A DNA stretch of 64,000 bases from Octopus vulgaris (lineage: Eukaryota). Shown here piece by piece: positions 1,235 through 48,838 of this stretch. The position numbers and the translations under genes are program-made. The notes beneath the pieces were generated by a model. The model ran no database searches. It had not been told where the DNA came from and saw only the letters and a program-made list of their open reading frames with translations. Numbering within the stretch: position 1 is the first letter of the stretch; each line of letters begins with the position of its first letter. The stretch lies in assembly GCA_951406725.2 (NCBI GenBank), contig OX597833.1:48608001-48672000 (forward strand), read 5' to 3'.

Positions 1235-1441
1235 ACCATCACCATATTATGTGTAAGGATGTATATTGAAGTAATGTGATATGTCATTCCTACTTGTTTA
1301 ATTTTCGCAGTAAAAGACTTAGTCATATCATTGATGCCAAGGAATTGTTGACCAATCTTCAAAATTAGTGTTTTAGACAGAATGATTGATAAATTATAGT
1401 TAATTAGCAACAGTATTATTTTCATAAAATAACTTTTAAAT

Positions 1442-1696
1442 TTCGTTTTTGGATTTGGTTTGCAAGATTCTTTATATGAGTTTGTGTGTTGAAGCTTATT
1501 CTGTTGTGTCTGGGGAGAGTCGTTTTGTTTTTGGGCCTTATAATCTAACACACACACCGGTAAAATTTCCACGTATTTCTTATTTTTATTTTCCTAAAAT
1601 TTTCAATAGTCTTGACTCTAGGAAAGTAAAAATAAGAAACAAGTGGAAAATTTATAAGGCGCAAAAAGAAAATGACTCTCCCCAGATACAATAGAA
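1442..1696. mobile_element. Fold-back mini-element family E
   Basis: Left arm followed by a partial inverted copy, flanked by direct repeat taacttttaaat (1430-1441, 1697-1708). Same ends as the copy at 34180-34498. Confidence 0.75.
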
Positions 1697-1943
1697 TAAC
1701 TTTTAAATATTTTATTGTAATTCTTCAGTGCAGTTCTTTATCACGTATATTCTTCTTTATCTTATATTCCACTTATTATCTAATTATTTTAGTTTCCTAT
1801 TCTATTTATTCTTCTTTATCTTATGTCTCACTTATCTATATCAATGTACTTTAAATAATCATGGAAAACTGCGTATGATTATTTTCGTCCTTTTGAACAT
1901 CATGATCCCGATCACGATCATCTATGTCATCATCATCGTTGTG

Positions 1944-6605: not shown

Positions 6606-9600
6606 TCATCATCATCATCGTTTAATGTCCGTTTTCTATGTAGGGATAGGTTGGACAGTTTGACTGAGGTCTGGAGAGACAGTGGCTGCAACAGGCTCCA
6701 ATCTGATCTGGTAATGTTTCTACAGCTGGATGCCCTTCCTAACGCCGACCACTCCGAGAGTATAGTGGATGCTTTTTAAGTGCCACGTTTGGATGATGCT
6801 TTTACGGGCCACTGGCACGGGAGCCACTCAGTGGTGGGGAGGGGGCCACTGGCCACAGCTACAATATTGGTTTTACTTGACTCATCAAGTCTTCTCAAGC
6901 ATATCATATAGCCTGACGCATCCGGGGTATTCTCAACAGGGTCTTCTCAATCACAGCATATCTCCAAAGGTCCCAGTCTCCTGTCATTGTCTTTTATTTT
7001 CCTAAAATTTTCATTGCGTCTTGCAACCTTTTCAATAGTCTTGACTCTGTCCATTATTTACACTATGTTCCCTTTTGTTTGTTTGCGGACATGTGTGTGG
7101 GTCAGTGTGTGTGTATGTGTGTGCCTGCACGAGAAGAAAATGACCCTCCCCAGACACAACAGAATATGTTTCAACACACGAACTCATATAAAAAATCTTG
7201 CAAACCAAATCCCAAAACGAAATAGTTCTATTTTTTTATGTCAGATTTGTCTGTGATTTCTCCATGATACAATTTCTTTTCTTGATTTCATGGGTTGCAT
7301 TCCATAAGTATTCTCACCACCATTTCATTAGGGTACTGATTTATTTTCAGTTGCTTTGTTTGTTTAAGATAACTTTCGTTGAAGAGCACTTAACCTAAGA
7401 GATAGCTTTAATACCATGATATAGATTCATAACCTATTACATTAGAGTTACTACTGATGGTAAGATTGATAATTGAACTACTGTCAACAAACATCAAACA
7501 CCACTGCTAATAATTATTATGCTGAATTATTATAATTATGCCAAGTCAATGAGTGCACTTAATTGGCTATTATACATGACTGCTATTCCCGGCAGTGCAT
7601 TGTGTCCTTGAGCAAGACACTTTATTTCACGTTGCTCCAGTCCACTCACCTGGCAAAAGTGAGTAGTACCTGTATTTCAAAGGGCCAGCCTTGTTACACT
7701 CTGTGTCATGCTGAATCTCCTTGTAAACTACGTTAAGGGTACACATATTTGTGGAGTGCTCAACCACTTACACGTTAATTTAATGAGCAAGCTATTCCGT
7801 TGATTGTATCAGCTGGGACCCTCGTCGTTGCAACCGACAGTGTGTTCCTTTATGCATGACTGCTAATATTATATTAACAAGGCATGGTGGCGAGCTGGTA
7901 GAATCATTAGCACATCAGGAAAATCTCCACCAGTATTTAGTCCATCTTTACATCCTGATTTCAAATTCTGTCAAGGTCTACTTTGTCTTTCATCATTTTT
8001 GGGTTGAATAAGTACCATTTGAATACTGGAATCGATGTAACTGACTTGCCCTTCCCCTAAAATTGTTGGCCTTGTGCCAAAAATTTGAAGCCAATATTTA
8101 AGGCGGTAAGCTGGGCAAAATGTTTTTGCAACATTTAGTCCATCTTTACATTCTGAGTTCAAATCCACCGAGGCCTACTTTGCTTTTCATCCTTTCGGGG
8201 CCAATAAAATATGTAGCTGTTGAGCACTTGGGTTGATGTAATCGATTTGTTCCTTCCCCTGAAATTACTGGTTTTATACCAAAATCTGAAGCCAATATTT
8301 TATTAACAGGGTAAAGTGGCAAGCTGGCAGAATCATTAGCACACCAGCCAAAATACATTCTGAGTTCAAATTCCACTGAGGTCTACCTTGCCTTTTTTTC
8401 ATCATTATTATTACATTGACCCAGTCCTCAACTGGTACTTGTTTTATCGAACCCGAAAGGATGAAAGGATAAGTCAACTTCGGTGGAACCCAATAATTAT
8501 AATACTGCTTTCTAACATAAACAAAATTCTTCAGCGAAGTGGACAATTAGTTAAACCAACGCAAATATATGTAAGAAATAATTATGATAATGCTTTCTAA
8601 CATAAACACAGGGACATGATTTTGTGGGGAAGTGGATAGTTAATTAAATTGACATAACTATGTAACAAATAATTATAGTAATCCTCTCTACTATGAGCGT
8701 GGAGGTGCAATGGCCTAGTGGTTAGGGCCGCGGACTCGTGGTCGGAGGATCGCGGTTTCGATTCCCAGACCGGCTGTTGTGTGTGTTTATTGAGTGAAAA
8801 CACCTAAAAGCTCCATGAGGCTCCGGCAGGGGTTGGTGGTGACCCCTGTTGTACTCTTTTGCCACAACTTTCTCTCACTCTCTCTTCCTGTTTCTTGAGT
8901 AACGCTGTGATGGACTGGCGTCCCGTCCAACTGGGGGGACCACATATACAACAGAAACCGGGAAACCGGGCCCATGAGTCTTGCTAGGCTTGAAAAGGCT
9001 GACGTTTATCGTTTTTCTACTATAAGCACAAGGCCTGAAATTTTGGTGGAAGTGGATATTTGATTACGTCACCACTATTGCTACTTGCTTTTTATCGTCC
9101 CCAAAGGGATAAAGAGCAGAGTCGAACTTAATGGAATTTGAACTGAGATTGTAAAGATGGACGAAATGCCACTAAGAATTTTGCTCACAGTACTTATTTG
9201 AACCCAGAATGAAGACATATAACTAAATACTGCTACCACCTCCATTTAAGCATAACCATAATAATGTAGTTTTGGTGGGATCTGTATAGATCTGGTCCAC
9301 TCATTCCATTTCTCTCTAGGGGTCTTTGGCCATTGAAGTTATAGCAGGGGTCTACCTCTTACTGATCTAGTGGGGCAGAAACAACTAAGGCCATGTTCCT
9401 TGTCACATAGAGAGACAGAGTGGACTAAACAGAAAAGGAGGAAACATGTGGATGGAAGAGTTGCTGAAGAGGTCACAGGTGTGTGACGAAAGATTTCCAG
9501 ATTATAATGGACATAAGATAAAATAAGAACAATTATATATAGTGCATGTATTTATTTGGCAAGTAAAAAAGTAAAAATGACCATCCCAAAATATAACAAC

Positions 9601-10223
9601 ATATCATCATTATTTAACATCCGCTTTCCATGCTAGCATGGGTTGAACGATTTGACTGAGGTCTGGTGAACCAGATGGCTGCACAAGACTCCAGTCTGAT
9701 CTGGCAGAGTTTCTACAGCTGGATGCCCTTCCTAATGCCAACCACTCTGAGAGTGTAGTGGGTGCTTTTACGTGCCACCAGCACGAGAGTCAGTCAGGCG
9801 GTACTGGCAACAGCTATGCTCAAATAGTGCTTTTTATGTGCCACCTGCACAGAAGCCAGTCCAGCGGCACTGGCAACGACCTTGCTTGAATGTTTTTTCA
9901 TGTGCCACCAGCACACGTGCCAGTAAGGCGACGCAGGTAATGATCACGCTTGAATGGTGCTTTTTATGTGCCACTGGCACGGAGGCCAGTTTGTTGCTCT
10001 GGCAATGATCACACTCGTATGGTACTCTTAATGCTCCACTAGCATGGATGCCAGTCATTGAATTTGATTTCAATTTCAAACGTATATTTAAGGGAATGCA
10101 TTGACCCTTGCTGTGGTACTGCAACTAACTCTGCCATTCTACAGGTTATAACCGTTATTATTATAAACACTGCAAACAGATTTAATGTCCAAACAACTAC
10201 TACTGCATAAACACTGGTGCTGT

Positions 10224-15538: not shown

Positions 15539-18240
15539 GTAGTAACAGGAAAGAAGGAATTTCGATTATCCCCACGTGGTGAGTTGTAATATATATAAGA
15601 AATTAAAAAAGAAAAATACATATAAGAAATTAAAATTATGTAAAGTGTGTGTATTTTCCTTTTTTAATTTCTTTATATATATATACGATGGGCTTCTTTC
15701 AGTTTCCATCTACCAAATCCACTCACAAAACATTGGTTGGCTTGAGGCTATATAGATGACACTTGCCTGCCCAAGGTGCCATGCAGTAGGAATGAACCTG
15801 GAACCATGTGGTTAGTAAGCAAGCTACTTACCACACAGCCACTCCTGCACCTATATGCATGCATCTGCGTGTGTGTGTATGTGTGATGTGTGTATGTATC
15901 TCTTGAATTTTACTGGTTTCAGCCAGTGGCCTTTCACCATGATTGGGTTTCTTTTCTGTACTGTTCCTGGTGAAGTCACAAGCTGGATAGAACTGCTCTT
16001 CTTTGTTGCCTCCTGCTTCAAAGTGGGTCCATCTGATATTTCAGATAAAAATTTGTCCAGATGCTCTTTGATGACCTTGCACATGTACATTTTCCAAATC
16101 TCTAAGGTCATTTGGCAGAATGTTGAGTAGTTGTGGACCCCTGAAACCTAAGCTGTTACAGTATTGGCTCCTTATTTTGAGATAGAGAAGACAGGATCTT
16201 TGATACTATGCAGTACAGTCCTGTTCTGTGGTTGGCTTTGCTTTCAGTTCCAAAGTTAGGAGCTAGACCTTCCAAGATCTTCTATATGTGTATCACTGCA
16301 TATCTTTCACACCTTCCCTCTGGGGAGCAGAGCTTCAGTTCCTTTATCCTCTCCCAGTAGCTCATCTGTTTCACTGAGTCAGTCTTTGTGTAGTGGCATT
16401 AAATTGCCTGAAGTTCTGCTATCAATTGGTTATCTACTTAACCAATTAACTAATCAAACAATCAATTAGTTAATAGGTTAAATAGTCAACCAATTGAGAA
16501 ATAAATAATGAAAGAAGTACAATAGAACCAGTGGATCTGTCTATTATATTAATTTATTTCTTTATTGCCCATAGGGGGGGGGGGGGCTAAACATAGGGGG
16601 GACAAACATGGACACAGTGATTAAGGTGATGACATCGGCCCCAGTGCGTAACTGGTACTTATTTAATTGACTCCGAAAGGATGAAAGGCAAAGTCAACCT
16701 TGGCGGAATTTGAACTCAGAATGTAGCGGCAGATGTAATACTGTTAAGCATTTCGCCCAGTGTGCTAACGATTCTGCCTGCTTTTCACCCCATCTATTAT
16801 ATTATTGGCATATTGACTTGCCCAAAATACAACAAAATATGTTTCAACACAGGAGTTTACATTATGAATCTTGCAAACCAATTACAAAAAACTAGAAAGT
16901 GAAATAATAATGTCTTTTGATTTTGTCTAGGTTTGTGTTACCTGCTGATATTAAGTGGTATGAGAAAACAATGGAGCGTGTTGTTTTGGAGGACCTTGGA
17001 CATGAATACCGTGAACAAATCCAGAAGACTCACTATTTTACAGATTTCCTCAGGTATCTAAAGACATTTTTTTAACAAGAATTTATGAATTTTAATAAGA
17101 TTTATGCTTTTAACACATTTTATTTTAATATGAGGGAGACTCAGAAATTATATGCACTCTTGCTTTTACAATGCATTTACACAAAAGCAGGGGATAAACA
17201 ATATGTCATTTTTCTATATAGTCTTCTTCCTTTTCGATGCATTTGGTCCAGTAGTCCACAAGCTTGTGTATCCCCTCCAAGAAGAAGGTTTGCAGTTGGT
17301 CATGTAGCCATTTATGCACCGCTTCCTTCACATCTTCATCTGTTGGGAATTGAATACTCTTTGTTCTTCTTTGGTTCACATTGCTTGTGGAGCGGCCATA
17401 TTTACCCTGTAAAGCCAGAAAGAAAAATTGCATGATCAGGCTCAAACTTCGACCATGTGACCCCAATAGTACTGTAACAGGATCTGGAATCGGTATCACT
17501 GAAGGGGTGTCCGATCCGATCCCGTCACATTCAATTTAGTTAAATATAACAGACGAAGTCAGGTTATCTGGGAAAGACAGCAAATGTTGTTTTATTACTC
17601 GTGATGGTGTTGATCTGGTGTGCGTATTTCTGAGGGGGACCGACAGCCGGTTCTGTTGTACTGCTTCTTGTTGGCTGGTCGAAGTGTTTCAATGTGGTCC
17701 GCTGCTAAGTCGGTGCGTAGTCCTCAGAGACTGCCAACACACGTCTGTTCACGAGGGCTGCAAGGGCCAGAGAGGCTGAGTGAGTGGACGGTGTTTTAGG
17801 GGTCAGTTTCCCACACATGCGCATGGGGAAGACTTCCGGTGGCCACCCGGAAGTAGTCCCATTCTGCGCATGCGCGCTGAACCTTACACAGCAGCATCAC
17901 TACAGTACCAACTGTAAGCACACATGTCTCCGGACGTAGTGTTGCAGGCTTACCTTTCTATGAACGCCACCATCCCTGAACCAAAACAATGGAATTCCAC
18001 ACTTCATAGTATACTGCTATCTTAGCTCGCTCTTGAACAGTCAAGTGGTTGGCCATCTGGAAAATAAGAAATAAGACAATAAGAAATCCCCATTAGTGTT
18101 GTCTGTTTAGAAAATGTTTTCATCATGACTTCAGTGATACTAAAAATTCTATAAACAATTTCTAATGCCTATTTACTATCCACCCACTCTGCATATGTCA
18201 CAACAGTCTTACATTCATACACACAACATGCATATATACA

Positions 18241-19125: not shown

Positions 19126-22100
19126 CACACACAGACACAATGTGTTTGTGTATCTCATGCAACATGGTTAAATTTATAGTAAGATAACAGGATAATGCTT
19201 TTAGAAGGAGAGATTATGAAAGGTAAAGATGAAAGAAAATAAAAGAAAATGAAACAAAATAAAATGCAATAAAATGTACGAGAGTACAAGGCGGTACAAG
19301 GAGGTTTAATTTTCTGTAATAGGTTTATGGATATAAAAGTTTATGGATATAGAAATTTATGTAATCATTGACTTGGAAGCTCTCACAAAATAAGCTACAA
19401 CTCTCAGCAAAAGGCTCTTTCAAGGTCACACACCATACGTAGGGTAAACTATCTGTCTTTCTATCTACCTATCAAACTATCTATCCATCTAGCTATTGAT
19501 CTATCTGTCTGTCCGTCTGTCTATATATCAACCTATCTCTCTGCCCTTCTGTTTATTTGTCTACATATATACTTGCTATATCTACTTCTATATCCATAAA
19601 CTTTTATATCCATGAAACCTTTAAAACAATTGTAGCCATACAACTATTAAAGAAAATTCAAATTCCTTATACCTCCTCCTTGTACTCAACAGCCTTTTAT
19701 TGTATTTTGTCTTATTTTCTTTAATTTTCTTTCATCTTCCTTCTTACCTTTCCTCTCCTCTCCTACTGATGGTGTAATACACTTATCTATACTTTGTGTT
19801 TGTTTGTGTGTATGTATGTATTTGTCGCTATGATAGATCGTTAACCACTACACACATTTTTTTCTTTCCTTGTTTTTTCTGTGTCCCTTTCTGTAGAAGA
19901 GCATAGGCTCGAAACGTAAAAGACTTTTTCTATTCCTGAGCGTTATACTAATACATCTGTTTGTTTTGTACACCACCTGTCTTTGTCTTTTGTTTTTTTC
20001 GTAAACTCTCCCTATAAATATATATATATGTTTGGTGATGCAACAGGAAAATAGAACTCCAAAACATAAGTGTCTATTTTTTTTATTAATAATCTCTTTA
20101 TAATCTCAAAAGTTACAGAGTGACTCAAGGGCTGAGAATTTCATGCATTGGCACTTACAAAGTTTGATTGATATGTGCATTAGTATTTGTCAAATTTGAA
20201 ATATATTGGGTCATCACATAAATAATGAGGTTTTTTAATACTCCTTTTGTTTTTCAAAATTAAGATAAACAAAGTTGTTTTTTAATCCAAAATATACTCT
20301 CTTTTGTTTTCTAAAATGCTTTTCCATCTATCAGGTAGACTTGCATGGTCCTTCTTCCAAAATTCACTTGTCCGTGATGAAAAATACTCCTCCAGTACTT
20401 TTCTGACCTCATTTACAGAATTCATATTTTTTCTGTCCAAATGATTTTGAAGACTGTGAAATAAATGATAATCATACTGGGCAATGTCCAGGGAATATGG
20501 TGGGTGCTGCATTGTTTCCCATTCAAATCCACTCACAAGTCTTTGGTCGGCCTGAAGCTCTAGTAGAAGACACTTGCCCAAAGCACCACACAGTGGAACT
20601 GAACCTTGAACCATGTGGTTAGAAAGAAAACTTCTTACCACTCAAACTATTGCAATTTTATAAAATGTAGCAAATTGTCCACTCCTTTATCACAAGACCC
20701 CAACCAACTGGAAAGTGGGGAAAATATATTCTCGAATCTCACTATGAGAAATTCTGACCACGTAATCTGCAGGTTTCATCCATGAATGTAGATTTTCAGA
20801 GTTTATTTTTAATACGGTATACATTTCTTGCAGAAGTACAATTTGGTCAGTTATAATAATTTTAATCTTTTTTTCACTATTTTTAATCTTTTTGTCCAGT
20901 AAGTAACATCACAACACCAGTAACAATTTCATCTCTTTCAATGAAGAATTTCACTTAAAACTGTAAACTTATCTGGCTTCCTCTCTGTATAATGATTTTT
21001 GTTTGCTTGTTTTTTTTTTTTTTGGGGGGGGGGTGAAAATTTACCATTGTGTTACTATGGTTATTTTTTTACTAACTAAAATCTAAATAAGTGATTTTGA
21101 GTTCCACTTATTTACCACTATCTTTATCTTTTACTTATTTCTGTCATTATGCTGTGGCTTTGCTTGAGTACCATTTCGAAGAAATTAAGTCAAATAAATT
21201 GACCCCAGTTCTTTTTCTTGTTTTAAAATCTGGTGCTTATATATTACAGAGATGTACTTGCATAGCAAGTGACTTGATCTGAGATTGTGTGCTGAAACGA
21301 AAACAATTGCAGTGTGGAAGGTGTTTATAAGCCATTTAAGAAACACACAAAAGCTGTCAGATTCACTTCAACATTTAAATTTCATTTGTTAAAATATTTT
21401 CGTCGCTTTGAGATCGCGAACTATTCACTGACAAAATTTCGTGCTGCATCTCAATGAACAGGTTGTGGTCTCAAAGTGATGAAAATATTTTGACAAATTA
21501 AATTTAAATGTTGAAGTGAATCTAACAATTTTTGTGTGTTTCTTAAATGGTTTATAAACACCTTCCACGCTGCAATTGTTTTCGTTCCAGCACACGATCT
21601 CAGATCAAGTCACTTGCTATGCAAGTACATCTCTGTAATATATATATATATATATATACACATACAAGAGGCTTTTTTCAGTTTCCATCTACCAAATCCA
21701 CACACAAGGTTTTGGTTGGCTTGAGGCTTTAGCAGAACACATTTGCCCAAAGTGTCACACAGTGGAACTATATTCTGTTATTTTACATTATTTTTAACTC
21801 TGTAAATTATACCAGCGAAGAAAAAAGGCCATTGAAGATGGTGGCTGCTGCTTCTGCTCTTGTTGTTCATGTGTTTCATGATCTGGTAGTAATTAATATC
21901 ATAATTCTAATTCTGTCATTTCATACTGGTAATATATAAATGTGAACTATAGAACCTTTTATTCATATATGTAAAATTGACATTTAAAGACTAAACTTGC
22001 TTCCCTAGTGTGCCTTGCTCTATTTCTATGATAGTAATTTTCCATTACCTCCCTAACAATTCAACACTAAATTGACACATTCCTGTCTGATAAATTAAGT

Positions 22101-25793: not shown

Positions 25794-28648
25794 CAGTTCA
25801 GGGTAGCGTGCCCCTGCTAGCGAAGCATTAGTTTTGACAAAATAACTTGAATGCTAAAGGGTTAAACCACAATACCGCAAAAGCTTTTCAAATTCATGAA
25901 TTGTAGTTTGTACTGTTGAAACTGTATAACAAATGTCCAGAATCTGTATGTTCCCTCTATGTATCAATCATTACAAGTCTTTGTCTTACATTTATGTGTA
26001 TTGCTTGGTGTGTTTCATGACCAACAGAAGTTAAAAGTTCTGCATATTATGGGCATAGGAGTGGCTGTGTGGTAAGTAGCTTGCTTATGAACCACATGGT
26101 TCCAGGTTCAGTCCCACTGCGTGGCAATTTGGGCAAGTGTCTTCCACTATAGCCACAGGCTGACCAAAGCCTTGTGAGTGGATTTGATAGATGGAAACTG
26201 AAAGAAGCCCGGCGTATATATATGTATATATATATATATATGTATGTGTGTGTGCATATGTTTGTGTGTCTGTGTTTGTTCCCCCAACATCACTTGACAA
26301 CCAATGCTGGTGTGTTTACGTCCCCGTAATTTAGTCTACTTACTCAAATACTCAGCAAAACCACAGCCTACGTGCTGAAATAATCGGTCAAATAATAGTC
26401 TAAATAAAAAATAACAATAAACTCATTTAAATACTATGGTTTTTACCATCCCTCCAAATATAGAAACTGTTTATACTGAAACATTGTGATCTGTGTTAAA
26501 ACATCATTTTGTTGAATTGAGGAAACTATTACATTAGATAACAAGAAATACATAAGATCAGAACCTATGCCAATCTTACCTGGATCCAAAGTCCTGTATT
26601 TGAGTAGATATAGTAAATACAGATTACATAATCAATAGTTAGATTATGTTGATATATCAAAACATTGTGCTGGACTCTCAACATTTCCAAGAAATCAAGC
26701 CTCCTCTCTTTCATAGTAACTGAAACCACCTTTGCAGCAATTCATGTGGTTTGAGCTACATGGCCATTGGAGCCAATCCTTTCTCCCCTCTAATTGAACA
26801 GGAGTTTAGTTGGACACATGTTCCAATTAAGGAATTTTTTTGTGGCTGCTCAACTCCGTCTCCTTAAGGAGAAGAGTATATTGAAAAATTTGCACTCATG
26901 TGGATTTGTGTACATTTTCCAGATAAATTTTGCATTGTTACACATCTGTGACCTCTTCAGTGACTCTTTCCATCCATGTGTATCCTCCTACTCCACCTAG
27001 TCCATTATCAAAAGATTTCCAGACAATGGACATTAGATAAATTTTGCATAATTTTCAGATAATTGCTATAGACATTTGTTTTTTTTTATAATATAGGCGC
27101 AAGAGTGGGTGTGTGGTAAGTAGTTTGCTTACCAATCACATGGTTCTGGGTTCATTCCCACTGCATGGCATCTTGGGCAAATGTCTTCTACTATAGCCTC
27201 GGGCCAACCAAAGCCTTGTGAGTGGATCTGGTAGACAGAAACTGAAGGAAGCCCGTCGTATATATGTGTATATATATATATACATGTATGTGCGTGTATA
27301 TGTTCGTGTGTCTGTGTTTGTCCCCCCAACATTGTTTGACAACTGCTGGTGGTGTGTTTACGTCCCCGTAACTTAGCGGTTCGGCAAAAGAGACTGATAG
27401 AATAAGTACTAGGCTTATGAAGAATAAGTCCTGGGGTTGATTTGCTCGACTAAAGGTGGTGCTCCAGCATGGCCGTAGTCAAATGACTGAAACAAGTAAA
27501 AGAGTAAAGAGTATATAAGCAGAAATTAATTCAAACAAATTTTTTTTTTTAGTTGAATTTGAAAAAAAAAAAAAACTGATCTAAAAGTATTAATGGCTGC
27601 TCATTTAAAATCTTTTGTAATTAGTTTAGGCATTGAAGCTATCAGGTACGAGAAAAGCTTGTTATAACTCTCTTCAGTTATTTTGCTAATAACTTTAGAC
27701 AACAGGTAAAACATCACTATTCATTAAACCATGTACCAATTAAAGTTACTCGTCAAAGTTTTGTGTGTTAGTAATACAGCAGATTTCTACTATCCTTACT
27801 CCTGCAGAATCTTATCTGCGAACTAATTATCTTGAGAGTCATCTTCTACCACTTCATCCTATTTCTTCTTTAGGTTTCTTTTGCCATCAGAATATTCTAC
27901 TATCGGTAAAATTTGAAACCATTATTATTATTGCGCAGTCAGATGGTCTTTTCCGAGATACACGTGGAGTGATGAAATCATGTTGCATGCTCTCATACAG
28001 TATCCGCCCATTGCTGACTTGTGAATCTTTGTTGAACAGTTATTGTTACATGTAGGATGGATCCAGCTATTGCCTGAGTCCATCGTGAAGATTGCCCCGC
28101 CTCCTTCCTTTGGCCAGGAAGAACAGGCAGTTTTTCTCTGTTTGGTGGCTATGGTGAAAGAGGTTGTGCAGTGGATATGGTCGAAAGGTTTGAAGACGGT
28201 TACTTTTCTCTTTGGCCAAGGCTTCATTGACTTTTTGAGGTCCCACCTGAAAAGGAAAGTGAAGCTGGAGAGGGAGGTGCTGTCACCCAGTAAGTTTGTT
28301 GAAAGATGGGTGAATGTGGCAAGAATGGCCCGTGTGAATGGGCCTACTCTAAGTGTGTGCCTGTGTAGGCCGGATGGAATGAGAAGGAGAGGGGTGCCTA
28401 CTTGAGGTGCCTTTGGTGTTAGGGGGTCTAAAATGTGTGAGGTTTCTTTGGTCACCTCTCAATGGAACTCACCCCTATGGGGAAGTATATTGTTGGTTTA
28501 ATCTCCTTGTTAATTGTATTTTTTTGTTGTTTACATGTTTAACCCCACTGTTCCTCATATGTGTATCATCCTTTATGCTTTGTGTTTGGCCCTGGTGGCC
28601 AATAAAGAAAGTATTATTTTTATTGTTATTATTGTTATTATTGTTATT

Positions 28649-28689
<41 letters not shown>

Positions 28690-31600
28690 CATTATTATTA
28701 TTATTATTATTACTATTACTATTATTATTAATCAGTTGGTCAACTGTTTAACTAATTAACTAATTAATTATTTAATTAACCTTCCTGAGATGCAGCAAAA
28801 TCTGTTTCAACATTGGAGTTCACATTGAGAATCTTACAAACCGGATACAAACATGAAACATTAAATCCAACATATTATGTACAGTTAATACATAGAATTA
28901 TCCAACACTTTGAAATGATGGATGTCAGGAAATGTTGTCTTGCTTAAAATAAAGCCATTTGCTAGCTTGATTGAAGGAATTGCAGTATAGAAATAAGTCT
29001 AGAATCTTAACTATAAAAAACAAAAACAGAAAAACAATTCCTGTAACTGTTTCATAGTTGAATTACTGACCAGTTTGTAATTGGTATAAGGTGGATTCCA
29101 GAAGTTTTCAAGCATTTTCAGGAGGGACATTTATTCATTTCAAAGAAGTACAAAACTCTGACCTCCTTCAAGGATCCCTTGACTTCAATGCATGTGTAGT
29201 GCTCCAACCTTTTTGTGAAGGCCCCGTGGAAGATCTCCAAAGTGAAGGTGTCCAAAACCCTTGCCACAGCATCCTTCATCTTCAAAATGACTGACCCTGA
29301 GGTGCTCCTTCAGCTTGAAGAACAACCAAAAGTCACAGGGACAAGGTCTGGACTGTGGAGAAAAGTGAGGGTCAGTTTTGTTGTCCATCTGTCAAGCAGT
29401 TGCTTACCAGGATGCTTGTCACTGACCACTCTGGAAACAAATTTTTCATAAGTTTCATGCATGTTCAGATCTTCACGAATAATTCTGTGGACAGTTGCTG
29501 CACCACCTCTAAACTGTATGCTTATTGTCTTTATAGATACACAAACACAGCAGCCTTCATTCAGAAAATTATGAATTTTCTCAACCAGCTCTGACGCTTC
29601 TCTCCCTACCACTCTTCTCATTATCTCACAACTTCTCTCTCCCAGCCTTGAGCTTCTTGTGCCAGCAAAAACGTTAATCCATAAACAGTCTGGATCATCT
29701 CATTAGTTCATTAGTTTCTGTAGTGGTTTTTCCCAGTTTAGCACAGATGGCGGCGAGCTGGCAGAATCGTTAGCACGCCGGGCGAAATGCTTCACGGTAT
29801 TTCGTCTGCTGTTACTTTCTGAGTTCAAATTCCGCCGAGGTCGACTTTGCCTTTCATCCTTTCGGGGTCAATTAAATAAGTACTAGTTATGCACTGGAGT
29901 TGATATAATCATCTTAATCCATTTGTCTGTCCTTCTTTGTCCCCTCTGTGTTTAGCCCCTTGTGGGTAGTAAAGAAACAGGTATTTCATCTGCCGCTACT
30001 TTCTGAGTTCAAATTCCACCGAGGTCGACTTTGCCTTTCATCCTTTCAGGGTCGATAAATTAAGTACCAGTTACGCACTGGGGTCCGTTTGTCTGTCCTT
30101 GTTTATCCCCCTCTGTGTGTAGCCCCTTGTGGGCAGTAAAGAAATAAGTTTAGCACAGAACTTTATTGCATAGTGAGCTTTCAAATTGTCTTCATGTCCC
30201 AACTGCATTCCGCAAAACTAATCGGTTGTGACAATCAGTGTTTAGTAGAGTGTGTTCAAGGTGCTGTTACAGCCACCTCCTTCAGTCAGGAATAAAAGAA
30301 AAGATGCCAGGTCAGCTTATTAGATGTATAGTAATGATATACTTAAATCAGAATATTCTAGGACATTGGAACTGCCACTCCTGAAAAAGGTCTCAAAACT
30401 TATGGAATGCACCATGTATTTTATTTTTTCTACAGAGATCCACCAGAACCTTCAGGAGAAGAACCTGATGATGAAGACTTTGAAATGCCTAAAGTTTATG
30501 AACCTGTAAGTTTTTTTCTTTTTTTTTAATGTACCATCTTTTGATATGATTCTGTGAAAGGTTGCCATAGTAACACTCTTTTATTCTTTTATTCTTTTAC
30601 TGATTTCATTCATTGGACTGCAGCCATGCTGGAACTTAAAAGTTTTAGTTGATCATGTTGACTCCACTACTTATTTTAGCCTGTTCTCATTTTATTGATC
30701 TTTGTGTGATAATGGTGGAGGGGCATGGCTTAGTGGTTAGGGTGTTGGACTCATGATTATGAGATTGTGGTTTCGATTCCTGGACTTTTATGACATGTTG
30801 TGTTCTTGAGCAAGACACTTAATTTCATGTTACTCCAGTCCACTCAGCTGACAAAAACGAGTAATCCTGCGATGGACTGATTTCCCATCCAGGTGGGGAA
30901 TATATATGGCAGCATGGCAACCAGGAGACTGGCTCTTATGAGTCCATATGACATGTGAAGGGACTTTACCACTTTACTACATGTGATTATGATTACTGAT
31001 TGTGCCAATTAAAGGAAGAACCAAACTGCCCATTATTAATTAGTGTATTAACACTAATACACTAATAACAGGTGCAGGAGTGGCTGTGTGGTAAGTAGCT
31101 TGCTTACCAACCACATGGTTTTGGGTTCAGTCCCACTGCATGGCATCTTTGGCAAGTGTCTTCTACTATAGCCTCGGGCCGACCAATGCCTTGTGAGTGG
31201 ATTTGGTAGACGGAAACTGAAAGAAGCCTGTTGTATATATGTATATATATCTATATATATGTATGTGTGTGTATATGTTTGTGTGTTTGTGTTTGTCCCT
31301 CTAGCATTGCTTGACAACCGATGCTGGTGTGTTTATGTCCCCGTCACTTAGCGGTTCGGCAAAAGAGACCGATAGAATAAGTACTGGGCTTACAAAGAAT
31401 AAGTCCCGGGGTCGATTTGCTCCTTGACTAAAGGCGGTGCTCCAGCATGGCCACAGTCAAGTGACTGAAACAAGTAAAAGAGTAAAAAAAGAGAGAGTAA
31501 CTTAATAGGATTTTTTTCTCTATTACAGATTGAATCATTTGATCAACTCCGAGAATGGCTTCAGATTTATTTAGAGCAATACAACGAAACTATCCGAGGA

Positions 31601-34600
31601 ACAGGAATGGATTTGGTATTTTTTGAAGATGCTATGATCCACTTGATGAAAATATCACGAATAATTCGTACAGCAAGGGGGAATGCTTTGCTTGTAGGTG
31701 TTGGTGGATCAGGAAAACAGTCTTTAACTCGACTTGCCTCTTATATTGCAGGTTATCAAATATTTCAAATTACATTGTCAAGGTTGGTATGCTTAGTCTT
31801 CTGATAAACATTGGCTTTAGCATAGTAGTTCTTATCATTGAGAAGTAAAAACTGAAGTGAAGGCATCTATTATGAAAGATGAATATGATGTCTTTACTCC
31901 AGAATGGTTAAAACATAGAAACAGTAAAAAAATTAAAGAAAAAGAATGGAAATTTTAAAATAAGTACTTTTATGAATGGCTAACTGGCATTTGTGCCGGT
32001 GGCACGTAAAAAGCACCATTCGAGAGTGATCGTTACCAGTGTCGCCTTACTGGCACTTGTGCTGGTGTGCAGGTGACACGTAAAAAAAAAAAACACGAGT
32101 TTTTCAGGGCCGTTGCCAGTACTGCCTGACTGGTCCTTGTGTCGGTGGAATGTAAAAGCACCCACTACACTCTCGGAATGGTTGGTGTTAGGAAGGGCAT
32201 CCAGCTGTAGAAACTCTGCCAGATCAAGATTGGAGCCTGGTGCAGCCATCTGGTTCGCCAGTCCTCAGCCAAATCATCCAACCCATGCTAGTATGGAAAG
32301 CGGATGTTAAACGATGACGACGATGATGATGATCATCATATGACGGTGGCAGTGGCAAGGAGGAGGAAAATCTAGATTTTATAAAAAAACCCAAAAAAAC
32401 TACATTTTAGCACAAGAACAACATGGCCACACACTTCTGTTGATGATGTTGGTAGGATGATGAGAGGTGACGATGTAGTTACCTACCATGACAGGAGTGA
32501 AGTGTTATTATTGGGTTGTCCGGAAAGTTCATGCCGATTTATAGTAGCTTACCTTTCGACTTATTTTAGAACATGGTTGAGTCCATAAAATAGGATTTTA
32601 GTACACCTCCATTTAGAGTACAGTTTAAGCTATCTTTTTGTGGAAGAAGGTTTATGTTCCTATAACCTGTGTTAATTCTGTAACCCTTTACAATGGAAGA
32701 TAAGAAAGTTTATTTTCGGCACTTGATACTTCGGGAACCAGACAAAAATTGCTGCAGCTTGGCAGGGATGTGTTACCCCACCCTCCATATTCACCAAATA
32801 TTGCTCCTTCGGATTTCCACTTATTCAGGTCTCTGCAGAATAGTCTTAATGGTAAAAATTTCAATTCCTTGGATGACGTAAAAAGATACGTTGATGAATT
32901 CTTTGCCATGGAACCACCTCAATTCTGGGAAGAGGGGATTTTCAAGTTAAAGGAAAGATGGAGATGCATTGTGCAACGAAATGGTTCATATTTGGTTGAT
33001 TAAAAATGTAATGGCAAGTATTTTTCTTGCCTTTAAAAATTGGCATTAACTTTCCAGACAACCCAATATAAACCAAGATGAACATGAAGACAAATGTTAA
33101 CCCACCCTTTAGCATCCAAATTTCTCTGTCAAATGTAATGTTCATTTATTCACACTATTTTGAATTAATCATGTATTACCTCATAATTTTGAGATTTTGA
33201 TGGTATGATTGTTTATTTTTAGAATAAATTTGTAGGGTAGATGTGACAGGTGCAATATGGCTGTTTTAACATAAAACAGAATATTTGGGTCAGACATGAC
33301 TGTTTTATTAAATGCTAAAGGGTCAAATCACTTCTCAGTTTTAAAATAGTTATTCACTTTTCTTCTGCGACTTATATCTACCAATGCATGTGTAGGAGTC
33401 AAGTAAGAAGGGGCAGAAAATGTCCAGAGGGCTATAGGCAAAGGGCCTATAACCACAATGCCTCTAGGCACAAAGCCTATCAGCACAAAGCTTGAATTTT
33501 TGGGTGGAAGGGACTTGTTTATTACATCAACCCCCAATACACAACTGGCACTTAGTTCACATTTCAAAGACACACAACATGTGAAAACTATCATGCATGT
33601 CACATTTCAAACATTGTTGGGGTTTTGCTATACCTAGTTCTGTAGGTATTCTTTTCCTTTTTGTGTTATCTTTAATCTAATTAAAGATTAATTAGATTAA
33701 ATTAATCTAATTATGACACTCCTGGAGTGGTTGGCATTAGGAAGGGCATCCAGCTGTAGAAACTTTGCCAGATCAGATCGGAGCCTGGTATGGCCTTCTG
33801 GCTCACCAGTCCTCAGTCAAACCATCCAACCCATGCCAGCATGGAAAATTGACGTTAAACGATAGTGGTGGTGGTGGTGGGCGGCGGCAGCAGTGGTGTC
33901 GCCTTCTTCTTCTTCTTCTTCTTCTCCTTCTTCTCCTCCTCCTCCTCTCCCTTCTTCAATCTAATGTAAAAATATTTGTCTTCCATTGCAGATCTTACAA
34001 TGTTATCAACCTATTAGAAGACCTGAAGCATCTCTATCGAGTAGCAGGGCTTTATGGAAAAGGAATTACTTTCCTATTTACTGATCAAGAAATTAAAGAT
34101 GAAGGTTTTTTGGAATACCTTAACAATGTGTTATCTTCTGGCCTCGTAAGTTTTCCATATGTTTAAACACATCCTTGTTTTTGGATTTGGTTTGCAAGAT
34201 TCTTTATATGAGTTCGTGTGTTGAAGCATACTCTGTTGTGTCTGGGGAGAGTCATTTTCTTTTGTGCCTTATAATTTAACACACTCACCGGTAAAATTTC
34301 CACTTATTTCTTATTTTTATTTTCCTAAAATTTTCATTGCGTCTTTCAACCTTTTCAATTATCTTGACTATTGTAAAGGTTGCAAGACACAACGAAAATT
34401 TAAAAAAAATGAAAATAAGAAATAAGTGGAAATTTTACCGGTGAGTGTGTTACATTATAAGGCACAAAAAGAAAATGACTCTCCCCAGACACAACAGAAC
34501 ATCCTTGTTGTTTCATGAAAATTCTTTTTTTAACAGTGATGATACTGAGGAGAAGGAGGATGAGGAGCATGATGATGATAGCATTGGTGGTGGTGAGGAT

Positions 34601-36617: not shown

Positions 36618-38797
36618 CACAATTATATACGTTTTTATTATATTTTTTGCACTTTACTTAATCATCGGTATTTTATTGTTATTTTGATTTTAATATTTCT
36701 ATTATATGTAATTTTCTAGATGGTGTAATTTAATTGTTCATTTTGAATTGATAAAGGGTGTTTTTTTCTAATTTTTATATATATATATATATATATTATA
36801 TTGTGTGAAATTTGATTTACTATTTCTAAATTGAATTTTTTCCCCTGTAAGTTAGGATTAATATTCCCTCAAATAATTATTATATATATATGTATATATA
36901 TATATATATATATATCTGTATGTAGACACACACACACACTATATACATATATATTAGGTTGGCAACTAAGTTACTGCTGTTTTTTAAAATTTAAATTTTT
37001 TAGAAGTTTAAATAAAAAATAACAACTAATTAATCAATAATGTATTCACCCTTGTTGTTTACAACTTCTTCCCAACGTTCAACAAGATTTTTGATACCTT
37101 GTTGGTGAAAATCACCTGATTTCAACTCAAAAAATTGATCCACATCCAACCAAGCTCTCAATTCTGATTCAGCATTGAACGAAATTCCACGCATAGCATT
37201 TGAAAGAGATCGAAAGATGTGGAAGTCCATTGGTGCCAAATCAGAAGAGTACAGCGGGTGTGGCAGCACTTCCCAGCCATACGTATGAATGACTTTCTTG
37301 GTCATATTGGCAATATGAGGGCAGGCGTCGTCATGCAGCAGAAGAACTCCATGCTGCCGATTAGGTCTTTTTTTCTTGAATAGCCATGTTGAGCCATTCC
37401 ATCTGTTGAACATAGAGTTCCGTGTTGACCGTTTGGTTCCGTTCAAGCAATTCATAATGGATAATCCCTTCCCAGTCCCACCATCCGCACAACATAGTTT
37501 TATGTGGATGAAGATCTTGTTTCGCGCACAGTGTCGCTTGTTTACCGGAGCTAAGCCATTCCTTACGCTGCTTCATATTGATATAATGGCACCATTTTTT
37601 GTTGCCAGTAATGATTCGGTAAAGAAATCTTTGCTTGTGTCCATGAGTTGAGCAGTGACAAGCAAGCAAGCCAGCGGAGATTGTGGCTTGTTGATTTTTG
37701 TTGTTGTCACTTAAAGCACGCAGAACCCATGCTCCATACTTCTGAACCTTTCCCATCGAGTGAAGATGCTTCTCTATAGCAGTGTGGGAGCATTCCATTT
37801 TCTCTGCTAGTCCCATTGTCGTTTGACAAGAATTTTCGTGCAAAAGTTGGTTTAATTGCTCTTCATCGAACTCAAATGGACAGCTAGAATGAGATGCGTC
37901 TTTGAGGTCAAATCTCCATTTTTGAACTTGGCATACTAATCCTGAGCAGTTCTTTCATCTATGGCACCCTCTCCATACACAGCACAAATAATAATAATAA
38001 TAATGAAATTATTGTATACAGTGCTCAGGTGCACCACAACTTGTCAGAAAGTGCATATAAAGTACATGCAGTAATGTACAAATGTCTGGAAAGCGAACAA
38101 TGTATGAGTCAGATACATGCTTGTGTGTGTATGGAGGGGAGAAAATCAGGTGTATTGTGGCGAATCTCAGAAAGCATGGAAGTTTTGAAGGATGCAGTGC
38201 TCCGACAACTAACAACTGATGCCGGCAGTTTGTTCCATACTGCAGCAACTCTCTGCGTGAAAAAATGTTTCCTGAAGTCATGGGAGCTGTGCTGTTTTCT
38301 GACTTTGTAAATATGTCCACGGGTGTTAGATGGGTGGAGTTTGAAAAGGTGCTCAGAGTTATTGTTTGTACGATGGTTGATAATGGTTGAAATGTCGCAA
38401 GCAGCTTTTGCAGCCTTAGAACCTTCAGGTCAAACAATTAACATTTATGTAACACTGTAATTCCTGAAAAAAAACAAAACATTATGAGTCTAAAATAGAA
38501 ATGAAAATTTGAGGTGTAATAGCAAATGAATGGATTTTTGAATACTCATACTTTTGTGGTTTTTAATGAAATTAATATTAAAGCTGTGGTAGATTTCCAT
38601 TGTAAACAATAATGTTATTTTGATCTACCCGAGGTGAAAGTTGATCTTACATTCACATATATCAAGTCAATGAAATTTGAATCAAAACATGAATGTATAC
38701 ACGAGAGAATTTTGCAAAACTAAAAATAAACGAAGCATTCATTTTGTACAATGAGAAATCATTCAACAAAAATTTTCCTGAAGATTTTCTGTGCTAG

Positions 38798-45675: not shown

Positions 45676-48600
45676 CAATAACATGGAAAAATACCTTAGG
45701 AATGAGAACCTAGGTTCGAAATTTCCCCAAGACACCTGATGAAGGCTGGAGGGTATATCAGCCGAAATATTGTGTTAACAACAAACAAGATGAGGACAAA
45801 TATCCATCAAATGTAAATAATGTCTGCAAACAATGTTTCGTTTTTTTTTTTGTTTCTGTGCAAGTCACTTAATTCTTGTCTCTTCAGCCACCTACACAAT
45901 TTTTCCACAATAATAGTTCAGTGTACTCTTTGCCTATGAACCGATACTTTCAATTATTCAATGTTCTCATTTGTCCCTATTGTATGAAATGAAGTATATC
46001 ACTTAGTTTTGTGCTAGTATATCATTTAGTTTCATGCTAGAGCATGAGTTACCTCATGGTAACCTACTTTTGACTGTTGCTCAAATGTGTGTTGTTGGTA
46101 TTTTTTTACATCACAATTGTTGACATAATGACCTACTTTTTGTTTCACTTTGCTAACATTCTCAGAAGATATGATGGCCACAACTTCTACCTCATCCTAA
46201 TCCTGAAATGCCATGCAATTGATTCAATCACTGCTTTGCATGGATGAACAATTTTCAATTAACATACATGTTTAAACGAAAGCCAATTACAATACATCTT
46301 CTACTTAAACCAGTATATCACTGTTTAATGAGCTCCTCTCTCCTTTCTCTCACACACAAACAATCACATACACATAAGTGTTCTTAAATAGTGGAGACAG
46401 ATAAATAGACAGCACATAAGAGTAGTCTGCTTTAAAAGGTTGTACTAGTCTATAAAACTTTAAAAATATCAACAAGCTTGACTGAAATACCAGCTCTGTG
46501 ATACACATTTCTATAGTATTAGATTATATAACTTTTAAAGTGTTTGCTTTGTTAGGTTAGAGGGATAGAGAAATATTCACCATTGGAGGAAGTTTATTGT
46601 GTAAAGGTACAGTGAGTCATAGAAAGCTAAATGAGCTGTACAGGTGCTTGCTTAATCTTGGAAGTGCTTCTTGCAGGATCACCTTGAGTAAGCATTGGTG
46701 ATAAGGAGGATTATTTTAAAGTTGGTATTTATTCTCAGATAGCAATATGGTAAGTACAGGAGCTGTATTCAGAGTGTATATCACACAAAAGCAATCCTTT
46801 ACATACTTTCTTTGTAGATGATACTGTTGTGTGGTAATTAGTGGTTGTTTCAACTTAGCCCACATGTTGTAAGAAATGGTCTCCACTGCTACAGCTACAA
46901 TGATAATATGTAATCTTACATTTAAACTAAAGAGTGGATTAAACCATATTATATTCCATTTTCTAAATGTGAAACATTTGCCCCTGCTTAAGCGAGAAAC
47001 TGATCTTATAGAATATCAACTTTGCTCTCAAACATCATAATAATAAGAGGCAGCTTTATAAAGTTTTGCAATATCTGGAATTAAATTTTGTAACTTTGAA
47101 AGCTTTGTTAAATTTAATTAAAAAGTGCAGAGACATGCACTAGTTCCAAATTTTGGTTGAATTCAGTTCAGTTCCAATTTTCGTTTGGTTCCACTTAGAT
47201 ATATATATTTTGTGGGGTAGCATTGTGGAAGCTAAAGCAGTGACTCATAGAGATTAGATTTTGGATGCAAAACAAACAGCTTCTCAGGTGCAAAAAATAT
47301 GAGTTACAATGTGCAGTTTCCATACAAAAGATATAATTTTCCTTCAAATTTAATAAAAATGTCAAGATTATTTATAAATTTAATGCATAAACATGTTATT
47401 TTAAGTTCATTAAATGGTAAAGTACACGTGTCATTTTCAACATAGAATTTATTTTTTACTTGTGAAGTCAAGCATAGTTTTCTCCGTTTATTTTCATACT
47501 AAATTGTAAAAATTAATCAATACAAATAATTAATAATTAAAATAATAAACACTATTTCTTAGCACCAAATTTAGGACTCTGAATTATGTTAGAAAAATTA
47601 ATCAAATAAATAATAATTCAATAAATTAATTGAATTAGACACTGAAAATTTATAATTGTCAAATTTATTAGATGAAAAACATTTCTTATTTTTTACTTAA
47701 ATAATTTATAAAATGACTGTTTGCATTTGAATGATCGTTGACAGAGCGGCTATTCGAATATGATCATTACCAGTGTCGCCTTACTGGCACTTATGCCTGT
47801 ACTAGTAGGGTGCCAAGAACACCATCTGAGCGGGATCGTTGTGATCATTGCCAGAGCAGCCAACTGGCTCCGTACCCGTGGCACGTAAAAGGGCACCATT
47901 CAAGCGTGATCATTACCAACGTCGCTTCACTGGCACCTGTGTTGGTGGCACGTGTAAAAAGATTCGAGCGAGGTCATTACCAGTACCGCCTGACTGGCCC
48001 CCGTGCAGGTGGCACGTAAAAAGCACCCACTACACTCTCGGAGTGGTTGGTGTTAGGAAGGGCATCCAGCTGTAGAAACTCTGCCAGATCAAGACTGGAG
48101 ACTGGTGCAGCCATCTGGTTGCCAGCCCTCAGTCAAAACCGTCCAACCCATGCTAGCATGGAAAATGGACGTTAAATGATGATGATGAATATCAACAGAA
48201 CAAAACAAAATTCAAAATCTATTAAAAAGTTATCAAAAATTCATATGTATTGTTTTTTAGTTTTATTGATTTTTAAACTATTTACATAATTTTGTACTGT
48301 TATTGTTCTCAAATTTCTATCCCTGTTCCCGTGAGCATCATGCCTGAATGTAGCAAAGAACTTAACATCAACATTTTCTTCACACATTTTGAGTTCATTA
48401 GCATTTTTATATCATTGACATTTTGCTAATTATGAAATTTACTTCTTGACTATAGTTTACTAAAAAATACGTTTTCTGTTTGTAAGAAGCTTTGCCTGTA
48501 AAAAGAGTGGACTAGCAGGGAAAATAGGGCCATGGATATGACAATATTCTTAACAAATTGAATAGAAAAAAGTACAAGATGAGAGATAGAAGCTTTAAAA

Positions 48601-48797: not shown

Positions 48798-48838
<41 letters not shown>

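What the first reader, a model, noticed from the sequence alone, without database searches (positions are those of the whole stretch)
34169..34509. TSD-flanked asymmetric fold-back element with a U3-A8 covariant hammerhead core
Seen: two independent insertions (1442-1696 and 34180-34498) begin at tttttggatttgg, fold back near aatagtcttgact, and stop at essentially the same base of the inverted arm (cccagaYacaaYaga). Each has its own 11-12-bp TSD. Near the fold the sequence reads cta-UUGAAAA-g-guugc/gcaaY-GAAA-au-UU-uag (best copy 7002-7038; mutated in both arms at 34324-34401; deleted in the 1442 copy). Established: C3 and G8 form a tertiary Watson-Crick pair, so a joint U3/A8 change is compensatory, and inverted terminal repeats occur in Penelope-like insertions. 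Inference: a defined non-autonomous retroelement mobilised as a hairpin unit with a variant ribozyme.
Basis: partly seen in the sequence, partly recalled or inferred. Interest (0 to 1): 0.8.

Follow-up and report, generated by a model that had tools for sequence, protein, structure and literature searches.

The report
Fold-back Penelope ends with U3-A8 hammerhead
These hairpin-shaped insertions are real and very abundant, and they are most likely the ordinary truncated end-pieces left by a Penelope-type jumping gene, carrying a predicted self-cutting RNA variant already described in flatworms rather than a new kind of mobile element.

Summary
Two insertions (34177-34499 and 1442-1698) are asymmetric fold-backs with 11- and up to 14-bp target-site duplications, and a UUGAAAA (U3-A8) minimal hammerhead motif is intact at 7002-7038 (minus strand). 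Public data show a high-copy family (18,707 contigs laid in one run) with two recurrent ends about 55 nt apart and a favoured, not unique, fold point. Each arm is a hammerhead plus about 75 nt plus the first codons of an ORF. That is the published anatomy of a Penelope-like pseudo-LTR with its 'tail', and the same UUGAAAA core is already reported for Schistosoma Penelope elements. Sister families in the window share the ORF start and end positions but carry C3-G8 (9464, 26960) or a decayed purine3-pyrimidine8 pair (21238-21644). Re-mobilisation of the hairpin as a unit is not shown: 0 of 12 variable columns are shared arm-specific changes. The likely origin is de novo formation at each insertion. 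No RT/GIY-YIG partner was recovered, and cleavage is untested. The scan reported the same pattern earlier in two shark-type genomes. Verdict: new member of a known kind, low interest.

The parts
34169..34179 (+). Copy A left target-site duplication (11 bp)
34177..34363 (-). Copy A long arm: pLTR-like segment plus tail; ribozyme and ORF start read on the minus strand
34177..34231 (-). Tail, about 55 nt, present on one arm only; lies between the two recurrent family ends
   Evidence: loose ends before 34177 and before 34228-34232
34178..34255 (-). ATG and first 26 codons of a putative element ORF
34325..34361 (-). Minimal type I hammerhead motif, U3 at 34358, A8 at 34353, damaged in stems I and II; predicted cut between 34328 and 34327
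   Evidence: family majority restores the stems
34356..34373 (.). Fold point: 2-nt loop at 34364-34365 inside the small AGTC-TT-GACT palindrome
   Evidence: same junction in a further contig, table 5c
34366..34499 (+). Copy A short arm: hammerhead (A6 mutated) to ORF codon 8-9 (ATG at 34475), no tail
34499..34509 (+). Copy A right target-site duplication
1428..1441 (+). Copy B left TSD (14-bp perfect repeat, edges ambiguous)
1442..1619 (-). Copy B long arm with tail; 21-nt deletion removes stem II
1619..1698 (+). Copy B short arm; starts at the first base after the predicted cleavage site, 20-nt internal deletion
1695..1708 (+). Copy B right TSD
7002..7038 (-). Copy C: best-preserved U3-A8 hammerhead motif (arm 6992-7048)
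7127..7223 (+). Copy C: 3' part of pLTR plus tail, ATG at 7140; separated from the inverted arm by about 80 nt of unrelated sequence
16813..16890 (+). Diverged tail-only relic E (60 of 84 nt match copy C), same frame open
28776..28853 (+). Diverged tail-only relic F (57 of 84 nt match copy C), same frame open for 26 codons
9436..9602 (+). Sister family H: C3-G8 core at 9464, ATG at 9577, ends at codon 8-9 like the short arms
26937..27041 (.). Second, decayed copy of family H: C3-G8 core at 26960 on the minus strand, with a short piece in the opposite orientation at 27011-27041
21238..21644 (.). Sister fold-back K: two 194-nt arms, both with tail, in (TA)n; decayed cores GUGAAUA (21428, minus) and AUGAACA (21454, plus); ATG at 21335 and 21547
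33992..34146 (+). Host exon upstream of copy A (open frame, GT donor at 34147); the window holds dynein heavy-chain exons

Best explanation
These TSD-flanked hairpins are likely head-to-head pairs of 5'-truncated end-pieces (pseudo-LTR, with a tail on one side) of a Penelope-like retrotransposon, likely made anew at each insertion rather than copied from a master hairpin. Shown: two recurrent ends 24-27 and about 80 nt into an ATG-started frame, TSDs, heterogeneous AT-rich flanks, a hammerhead-type motif about 75 nt upstream of the ATG. Inferred mechanism: the RT/GIY-YIG protein of an autonomous partner nicks both strands of an AT-rich target 9-14 nt apart. Each nick primes reverse transcription on element RNA at one of two internal start sites in the 5' end of the ORF; the distal site gives the long arm with tail, the proximal site the short arm. 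Both cDNAs stop within 100-190 nt and are joined, most often through the small palindrome just upstream of the ribozyme. Distal plus distal gives a symmetric insertion such as K. The U3-A8 hammerhead is inherited from the partner's pLTR, is predicted to cut only as a dimer or with protein help, and in the finished hairpin is locked in a 135-bp duplex and decays.
For: Sharp depth edge and loose ends at 34177 (244 contigs in X1, 39 in X15, 116 and 144 reads in X23 and X24) and a second end at 34228-34232 (71 contigs; 53 and 53 reads), against a gradual fall towards the ribozyme end. ORF start in the terminal segment, as in A. vaga Pen2a, where the pLTR holds 12 codons and the tail extends this to 22 (PMC3846280). 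In vitro, a Poseidon protein cleaves and extends both strands and starts RT at two sites in the ORF 5' end that define the tail (PMC11167929). Sister families end at the homologous codons. K's 31-residue terminal peptide is 87% identical to the start of P0009, an Octopus sinensis model that continues for about 190 more non-methyltransferase residues, and copy C's peptide matches it at 16 of 29. The motif fits the published metazoan PLE consensus: extra base before stem II, G10.1-C11.1 in 67-88% of depth, palindromic stem III, and an identical UUGAAAA core in S. mansoni(4). No shared arm-specific changes between A and B. Whole copy A folds at about -183 kcal/mol with the ribozyme sequestered.
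Against: No RT or GIY-YIG ORF was linked to this family: no motif in the window, and none. That residues 1-215 of P0009 are a Penelope N-terminus rests on my recall of motifs; Pfam, PDB and the Atlas gave no name. Codon-position mismatches between C and relics E and F are flat (8/8/8 and 8/9/10), so coding constraint is not shown from the window. The tail is about 55-59 nt, longer than the published 30-40. The fold point is favoured, which a master hairpin would also give, and the shared-change test has only 74 columns and two copies. The two-strand priming step is an inference; I recall it as akin to L1 twin priming and one search found no paper applying the term to Penelope.
Confidence: 0.78

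Rival explanations
1. A true non-autonomous family: one or a few master hairpins are transcribed and re-inserted whole by Penelope enzymes.
For: A and B end within 0-4 nt of each other on both sides and both carry TSDs. The fold of A recurs in another contig at depth 127.7, about three times single-copy depth, and 5 of 8 listed strand-switch joints touch 34355-34367. Non-autonomous PLE derivatives exist (PMC8557442; bioRxiv 10.64898/2026.07.22.740005).
Against: A, B and C have three different junctions. 0 of 12 variable columns separate long from short arms. Both ends also occur in non-hairpin or symmetric copies of sister families. Depth falls gradually toward the 5' end. A 135-bp duplex RNA would hide the ribozyme.
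Confidence: 0.14
2. Same Penelope origin, but the second arm arises by snap-back: one cDNA folds on the AGTC-TT-GACT palindrome (or at the ribozyme cut) and primes its own second strand, which stops at the proximal site.
For: A's junction is a perfect hairpin with a 2-nt loop. One X1 contig turns exactly at 34327, the predicted cut, and B's short arm starts there. pLTRs with 5' palindromes and a 15-bp overlap of the inverted copy are described in A. vaga.
Against: Snap-back does not explain why the short arm stops at the same site that ends non-hairpin copies (H at 9602; loose ends at 34232), nor the filler in C or the skipped ribozyme in B. No A-specific or B-specific change is shared by both arms of one insertion (0 of 12), though old age can hide this.
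Confidence: 0.3
3. A MITE or foldback DNA transposon whose inverted repeats resemble a hammerhead by chance.
For: Long inverted arms, TSDs, high copy number. Rfam gave no hammerhead hit in the window at E up to 1, and the fold z-scores are weak.
Against: The inverted repeat is not terminal (55-nt tail on one side), TSD length varies, many copies are one-ended (E, F, H), and my descriptor found 5 motifs against a mean of 0.03 in 30 Markov controls. The 3-8 pair changes together across sister families while position 7 varies freely (14% and 20% of reads in X23 and X24).
Confidence: 0.03

Closest known systems
Inverted pLTR plus tail insertions of canonical EN+ Penelope-like elements (A. vaga Pen2a, PMC3846280; general scheme in PMC8557442 Fig. 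2)
   Same: Inverted 5'-truncated pLTR next to a direct pLTR, optional tail on one end, ORF start inside pLTR and tail, 8-10 bp TSDs (9-14 here), small 5' palindrome, unrelated sequence captured between pLTRs (as in copy C).
   Different: Here no element body lies between the arms, and the tail is about 55-59 nt rather than 30-40. No autonomous partner was recovered, so the clade (Penelope/Poseidon, Neptune, other) is unassigned; it is not Hydra-1_Obim or an octopus Naiad.
Minimal type I hammerheads of metazoan PLEs, U3-A8 variant of Schistosoma mansoni Cercyon (PMC4209133)
   Same: UUGAAAA core, 3-bp stem I, extra base before stem II, G10.1-C11.1, no real stem III, UU at 16.1-17. That paper reports about 1,300 U3-A8 hits and pairs of motifs on opposite strands 100-700 bp apart.
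   Different: Different phylum; stem II is 5 bp; the extra base is G (consensus H, though Hydra-1_Obim also has G). 'Octopus' does not occur in the one supplementary file of two that could be searched.
Poseidon element PAc of Anolis (PMC11167929)
   Same: Two fixed ends inside the 5' end of the ORF defining the tail, AT-rich targets, no RNA-seq pile-up at the predicted cut.
   Different: In PAc the ATG lies in stem II and RT starts 111-118 nt into the ORF; here the ATG is about 75 nt downstream and the ends lie 24-27 and about 80 nt into the ORF. PAc has C3-G8.
Non-LTR retrozymes (bioRxiv 10.64898/2026.07.22.740005)
   Same: Short, non-coding, PLE-derived, type I hammerhead.
   Different: Retrozymes are head-to-tail tandem arrays; these are head-to-head pairs with the ribozymes on opposite strands.

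Membership tests
Penelope-like element terminal insertion (pLTR + tail) | Inverted 5'-truncated copy adjacent to a direct copy, tail on one end only | tested here: met
   two recurrent ends
Penelope-like element terminal insertion (pLTR + tail) | Short variable TSD, AT-rich targets | tested here: met
   11 and 9-14 bp in 2 of 2 complete copies, none found for C; (TA)-rich flank consensus
Penelope-like element terminal insertion (pLTR + tail) | pLTR and tail contain the first codons of the element ORF | tested here: met
   ATG frame open in A, C, E, F, K; continues in P0009; codon-position test flat
Penelope-like element terminal insertion (pLTR + tail) | Tail length 30-40 bp | tested here: not met
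   about 55-59 nt
Penelope-like element (EN+) | Partner ORF with telomerase-like RT and GIY-YIG endonuclease | tested here: inconclusive
   not found in window or databases; no genome held. P0005 joins the peptide to an SFDV motif like PLE RT but is a short, probably decayed model
Penelope-like element (EN+) | Spliceosomal intron in or near the pLTR | tested here: inconclusive
   a GTGAGT lies downstream of the ribozyme, but no spliced joint among the 15 of 28 joints listed
Minimal type I hammerhead of PLEs | Core YUGANRA and GAAA with a 3-8 Watson-Crick pair, UH, stems I and II, G10.1-C11.1, palindromic stem III | tested here: met
Minimal type I hammerhead of PLEs | Self-cleavage (as dimer or protein-assisted) | not testable with these tools
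   no start or end pile-up in two fragmented RNA-seq runs, which is uninformative
Non-LTR retrozyme | Head-to-tail tandem units each with a hammerhead | tested here: not met
   copies are solitary or head-to-head
Non-autonomous unit element | Copies inherit one junction and arm-specific bases from a master | tested here: inconclusive
   three different junctions and 0 of 12 shared changes, but a favoured fold recurs
MITE / foldback DNA transposon | Terminal inverted repeats and fixed TSD length | tested here: not met
   asymmetric tail, TSD 11 versus 9-14, one-ended copies

The most novel reading that the evidence does not exclude
Octopus Penelope sister families keep one hammerhead under selection through three states of the 3-8 pair (C-G, U-A and a purine-pyrimidine pair, G3-C8 or A3-U8, which my searches showed only as an engineered double mutant), and a subset of their fold-backs turn exactly at the predicted cut, leaving a genomic footprint of in vivo cleavage during retrotransposition across tens of thousands of copies.
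Probability: 0.15. Interest if true: 0.62.

Novelty: new member of a known kind. Interest (0 to 1): 0.27.

Why it matters
As found, it adds an abundant cephalopod-type family to a described pattern and corrects a likely annotation trap: such hairpins look like MITEs or microRNA precursors (one search gave sub-threshold miRNA hits on them). Its use is as material: a very large set of short insertions with two fixed ends and mappable junctions could test how Penelope elements make inverted pLTRs and whether the ribozyme cuts in vivo, both still open (PMC11167929 found cleavage dispensable in vitro).

Tried and rejected
No whole genome is held, so copies could not be tabulated one by one. Rfam: no hammerhead among 84 matches at E up to 1. 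Pattern scans found nothing in metagenome contigs or viral contigs; genome contigs gave one 27-nt exact match in 4 Streptococcus parasanguinis contigs with no extension, treated as chance. Protein searches for a full partner: none from the tail peptide, none from P0005; the profile search gave 6 hits, of which 4 are short Logan peptides with the tail peptide and 2 (P0004, P0006) are repetitive and dropped as spurious. The Atlas gave no usable hit for P0009 1-215. No RNA holder was listed on record; the two RNA runs laid are from a same-label species, cover both strands about equally and 94-96% of reads run on into unlike sequence, which fits passive read-through and says nothing on a discrete hairpin RNA. 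The GTGAGT splice donor idea found no support. The descriptor hit at 31838 is not repeated in the window and was dropped as chance; the descriptor was written after seeing the motif. Six short motifs of the family are absent from the Naiad/Hydra supplement. The alternative reading frame of the tail (…QQNMLQH…) was rejected because it has no ATG start and a stop in F. Within-family 3/8 variation could not be counted: positions 34358 and 34353 are not among the 40 of 142 variant rows shown. Supplements not seen that may bear on novelty: file 1 of PMC4209133, the GenBank file of PMC11167929, all bioRxiv supplements. Lunse et al. 2017 on dimer-cleaving PLE hammerhead variants is recalled, was not listed as a held paper and was not read.

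Full report
Setting. The window is animal DNA with dynein heavy-chain exons (Pfam MT and AAA_8), an RT ORF at 49294-50691 and many short repeats. The only named relative of the element's peptide is an Octopus sinensis model, so an octopus-type genome is likely. No assembly is held. Copy A lies just inside an intron whose donor is at 34147.

Observation. Copy A has an 11-bp perfect direct repeat at 34169/34499 and copy B a 14-bp one at 1428/1695 whose edges also fit the element; such repeats arise in 0.6-0.8% of 3000 random pairs. The arms of A match at 120 of 131 bases. The short arms of A and B stop within a few bases of each other, and the long arms run about 55 nt further. The hammerhead-type motif is intact at 7038-7002 (minus), damaged in both arms of A and deleted in B. 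The junctions differ: a 2-nt loop in A, a re-entry after the ribozyme in B, about 80 nt of filler in C, which has no detectable TSD.

Family-wide picture. Twenty of 24 listed runs, under five organism labels, hold part of the arm. Laying 4 of them on 34160-34372 placed 18,707 contigs from X1. Depth drops abruptly at 34177, where loose ends with heterogeneous, TA-rich flanks pile up (244 and 39 contigs; 116 and 144 reads), and a second end recurs at 34228-34232 (71 contigs; 53 and 53 reads). Toward the ribozyme the depth falls gradually, as expected of 5' truncation, though edge effects and A's own mutations add to this. The majority letters repair A's stems and give G10.1-C11.1 (67-88% of depth across the four runs). 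Position 7 varies in 15 of 107 and 20 of 98 RNA reads; positions 3 and 8 are not among the 40 of 142 rows shown. Of 15 joints shown (of 28), 8 switch strand, each in one contig; 5 of these 8 touch 34355-34367, and one further contig has A's exact junction, so the fold near the small palindrome is favoured but not unique. RNA reads lie on both strands and show no pile-up of starts.

What an arm is. Read on the ribozyme strand, an arm is: small palindrome, hammerhead, about 75 nt, ATG, then 8-9 codons (short end) or 27-28 codons (long end). The frame is open in A, C and two diverged relics, but mismatches are flat over codon positions, so constraint is not shown from these alone. A descriptor scan found 5 motifs in the window against a mean of 0.03 in 30 Markov controls, and a peptide search tied two more families to this one. 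Family H (9436-9602, second copy near 26960) has a canonical C3-G8 core and ends at codon 8-9. Fold-back K (21238-21644) has two full arms ending at the homologous Asn codon in (TA)n, and decayed cores reading G3/U8 and A3/C8. K's peptide matches the first 31 residues of P0009 at 27 of 31, and C's at 16 of 29. P0009 continues for about 190 residues before a PRMT3 segment, so it is probably a chimeric model that begins with an element ORF. I recall motifs in that stretch as Penelope N-terminal motifs; no tool confirmed this. Three Logan peptides stop matching at the tail end, as truncated copies would.

Comparison with the literature. PMC3846280 (parts 1-3 of 5 read) describes an inverted pLTR beside a direct one, a 31-bp tail on one end, the first 12-22 codons inside pLTR and tail, 5' palindromes, 8-10 bp TSDs and unrelated DNA captured between solo pLTRs. 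PMC8557442 (passages and supplement passages) gives this as the general PLE scheme. PMC4209133 (parts 1-2 of 4 and passages of one supplementary file) reports a U3-A8 minimal hammerhead in Schistosoma Cercyon, about 1,300 hits, with the same UUGAAAA core, and motif pairs on opposite strands 100-700 bp apart. PMC3088659 (two passages) reports natural U3-A8 covariation. PMC11167929 (passages and half of the main section) shows a Poseidon protein nicking and extending both strands, starting RT at two internal sites that define the tail, with ribozyme cleavage protein-assisted and dispensable in vitro. PMC13282606 (passages) lists Penelope-like families in O. vulgaris without mention of hairpins or ribozymes. 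The retrozyme preprint was read in part 1 of 5. Two earlier notes of this scan reached the same reading in shark-type genomes; they are leads, not evidence.

Mechanism. Most likely each insertion is made anew: nicks on both target strands prime RT at the distal and proximal start sites, both cDNAs abort early, and they are joined through the palindrome. This accounts for the fixed short end, which also terminates non-hairpin copies, for symmetric K, and for B and C. The ends, TSDs and anatomy are shown; the enzyme, two-strand priming and cleavage are inferred. Snap-back of one cDNA is the main alternative. A master hairpin is not excluded, but A and B share none of 12 variable columns by arm type (74 columns, two copies), and the hairpin RNA would bury the ribozyme.

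A lead. B's short arm begins at the first base after the predicted cut, and two single X1 contigs show the same letters at their joints, one turning exactly at 34327 (table 5c). The two contigs share a deletion and may not be independent, and the joint type is not printed, so this is a hint only.

Verdict. Real, abundant and well explained: a new member of a known kind, interest 0.27. Membership as a PLE terminal insertion is met on structure, TSD, ORF start and ribozyme consensus, not met on tail length, and inconclusive on the partner ORF.

Noticed in passing
window 21238-21644: Symmetric fold-back of a sister family; its two decayed hammerhead cores read G3/U8 and A3/C8, implying an ancestral G3-C8 or A3-U8 pair. 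Searches showed C3G/G8C only as an engineered mutant in what I read.
   Followed up: partly
window 45728-45778 (+): Well-formed canonical minimal hammerhead (CUGAUGA, 5-bp stem I, 6-bp stem II; z = -2.75), single copy in the window, next to an (AAT)n tract; probably another Penelope-type end.
   Followed up: partly
window 48837-48948: Short fold-back (z = -8.6) beside (TA)n; part of it resembles by eye the 3' half of a Hydra-clade hammerhead seen in the PMC8557442 supplement.
   Followed up: no
P0009 (XP_029654200.2): Octopus sinensis gene model appears chimeric: about 215 residues starting with family K's peptide fused to a PRMT3 fragment.
   Followed up: partly
window 5649-6140: Head-to-head inverted pair (219-nt arms, 90%) of an abundant short repeat with at least nine other copies in the window; unrelated to the finding.
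   Followed up: no
window 49294-50691 (-) and 37030-37954 (-): A 464-codon RT ORF with a PHD-like insert, and a frameshifted ORF pair that I read from recall as a mariner-type transposase (no Pfam hit at E 0.01).
   Followed up: no
L001-L004 5000-5026 (L003 3349-3375): A 27-nt exact match to the tail in four Streptococcus parasanguinis contigs, with no flanking similarity; treated as chance.
   Followed up: partly
window 34225 and 34309 (loose ends): Recurrent loose ends point to diverged subfamilies of the arm; the one at 34225 resembles relic E.
   Followed up: no
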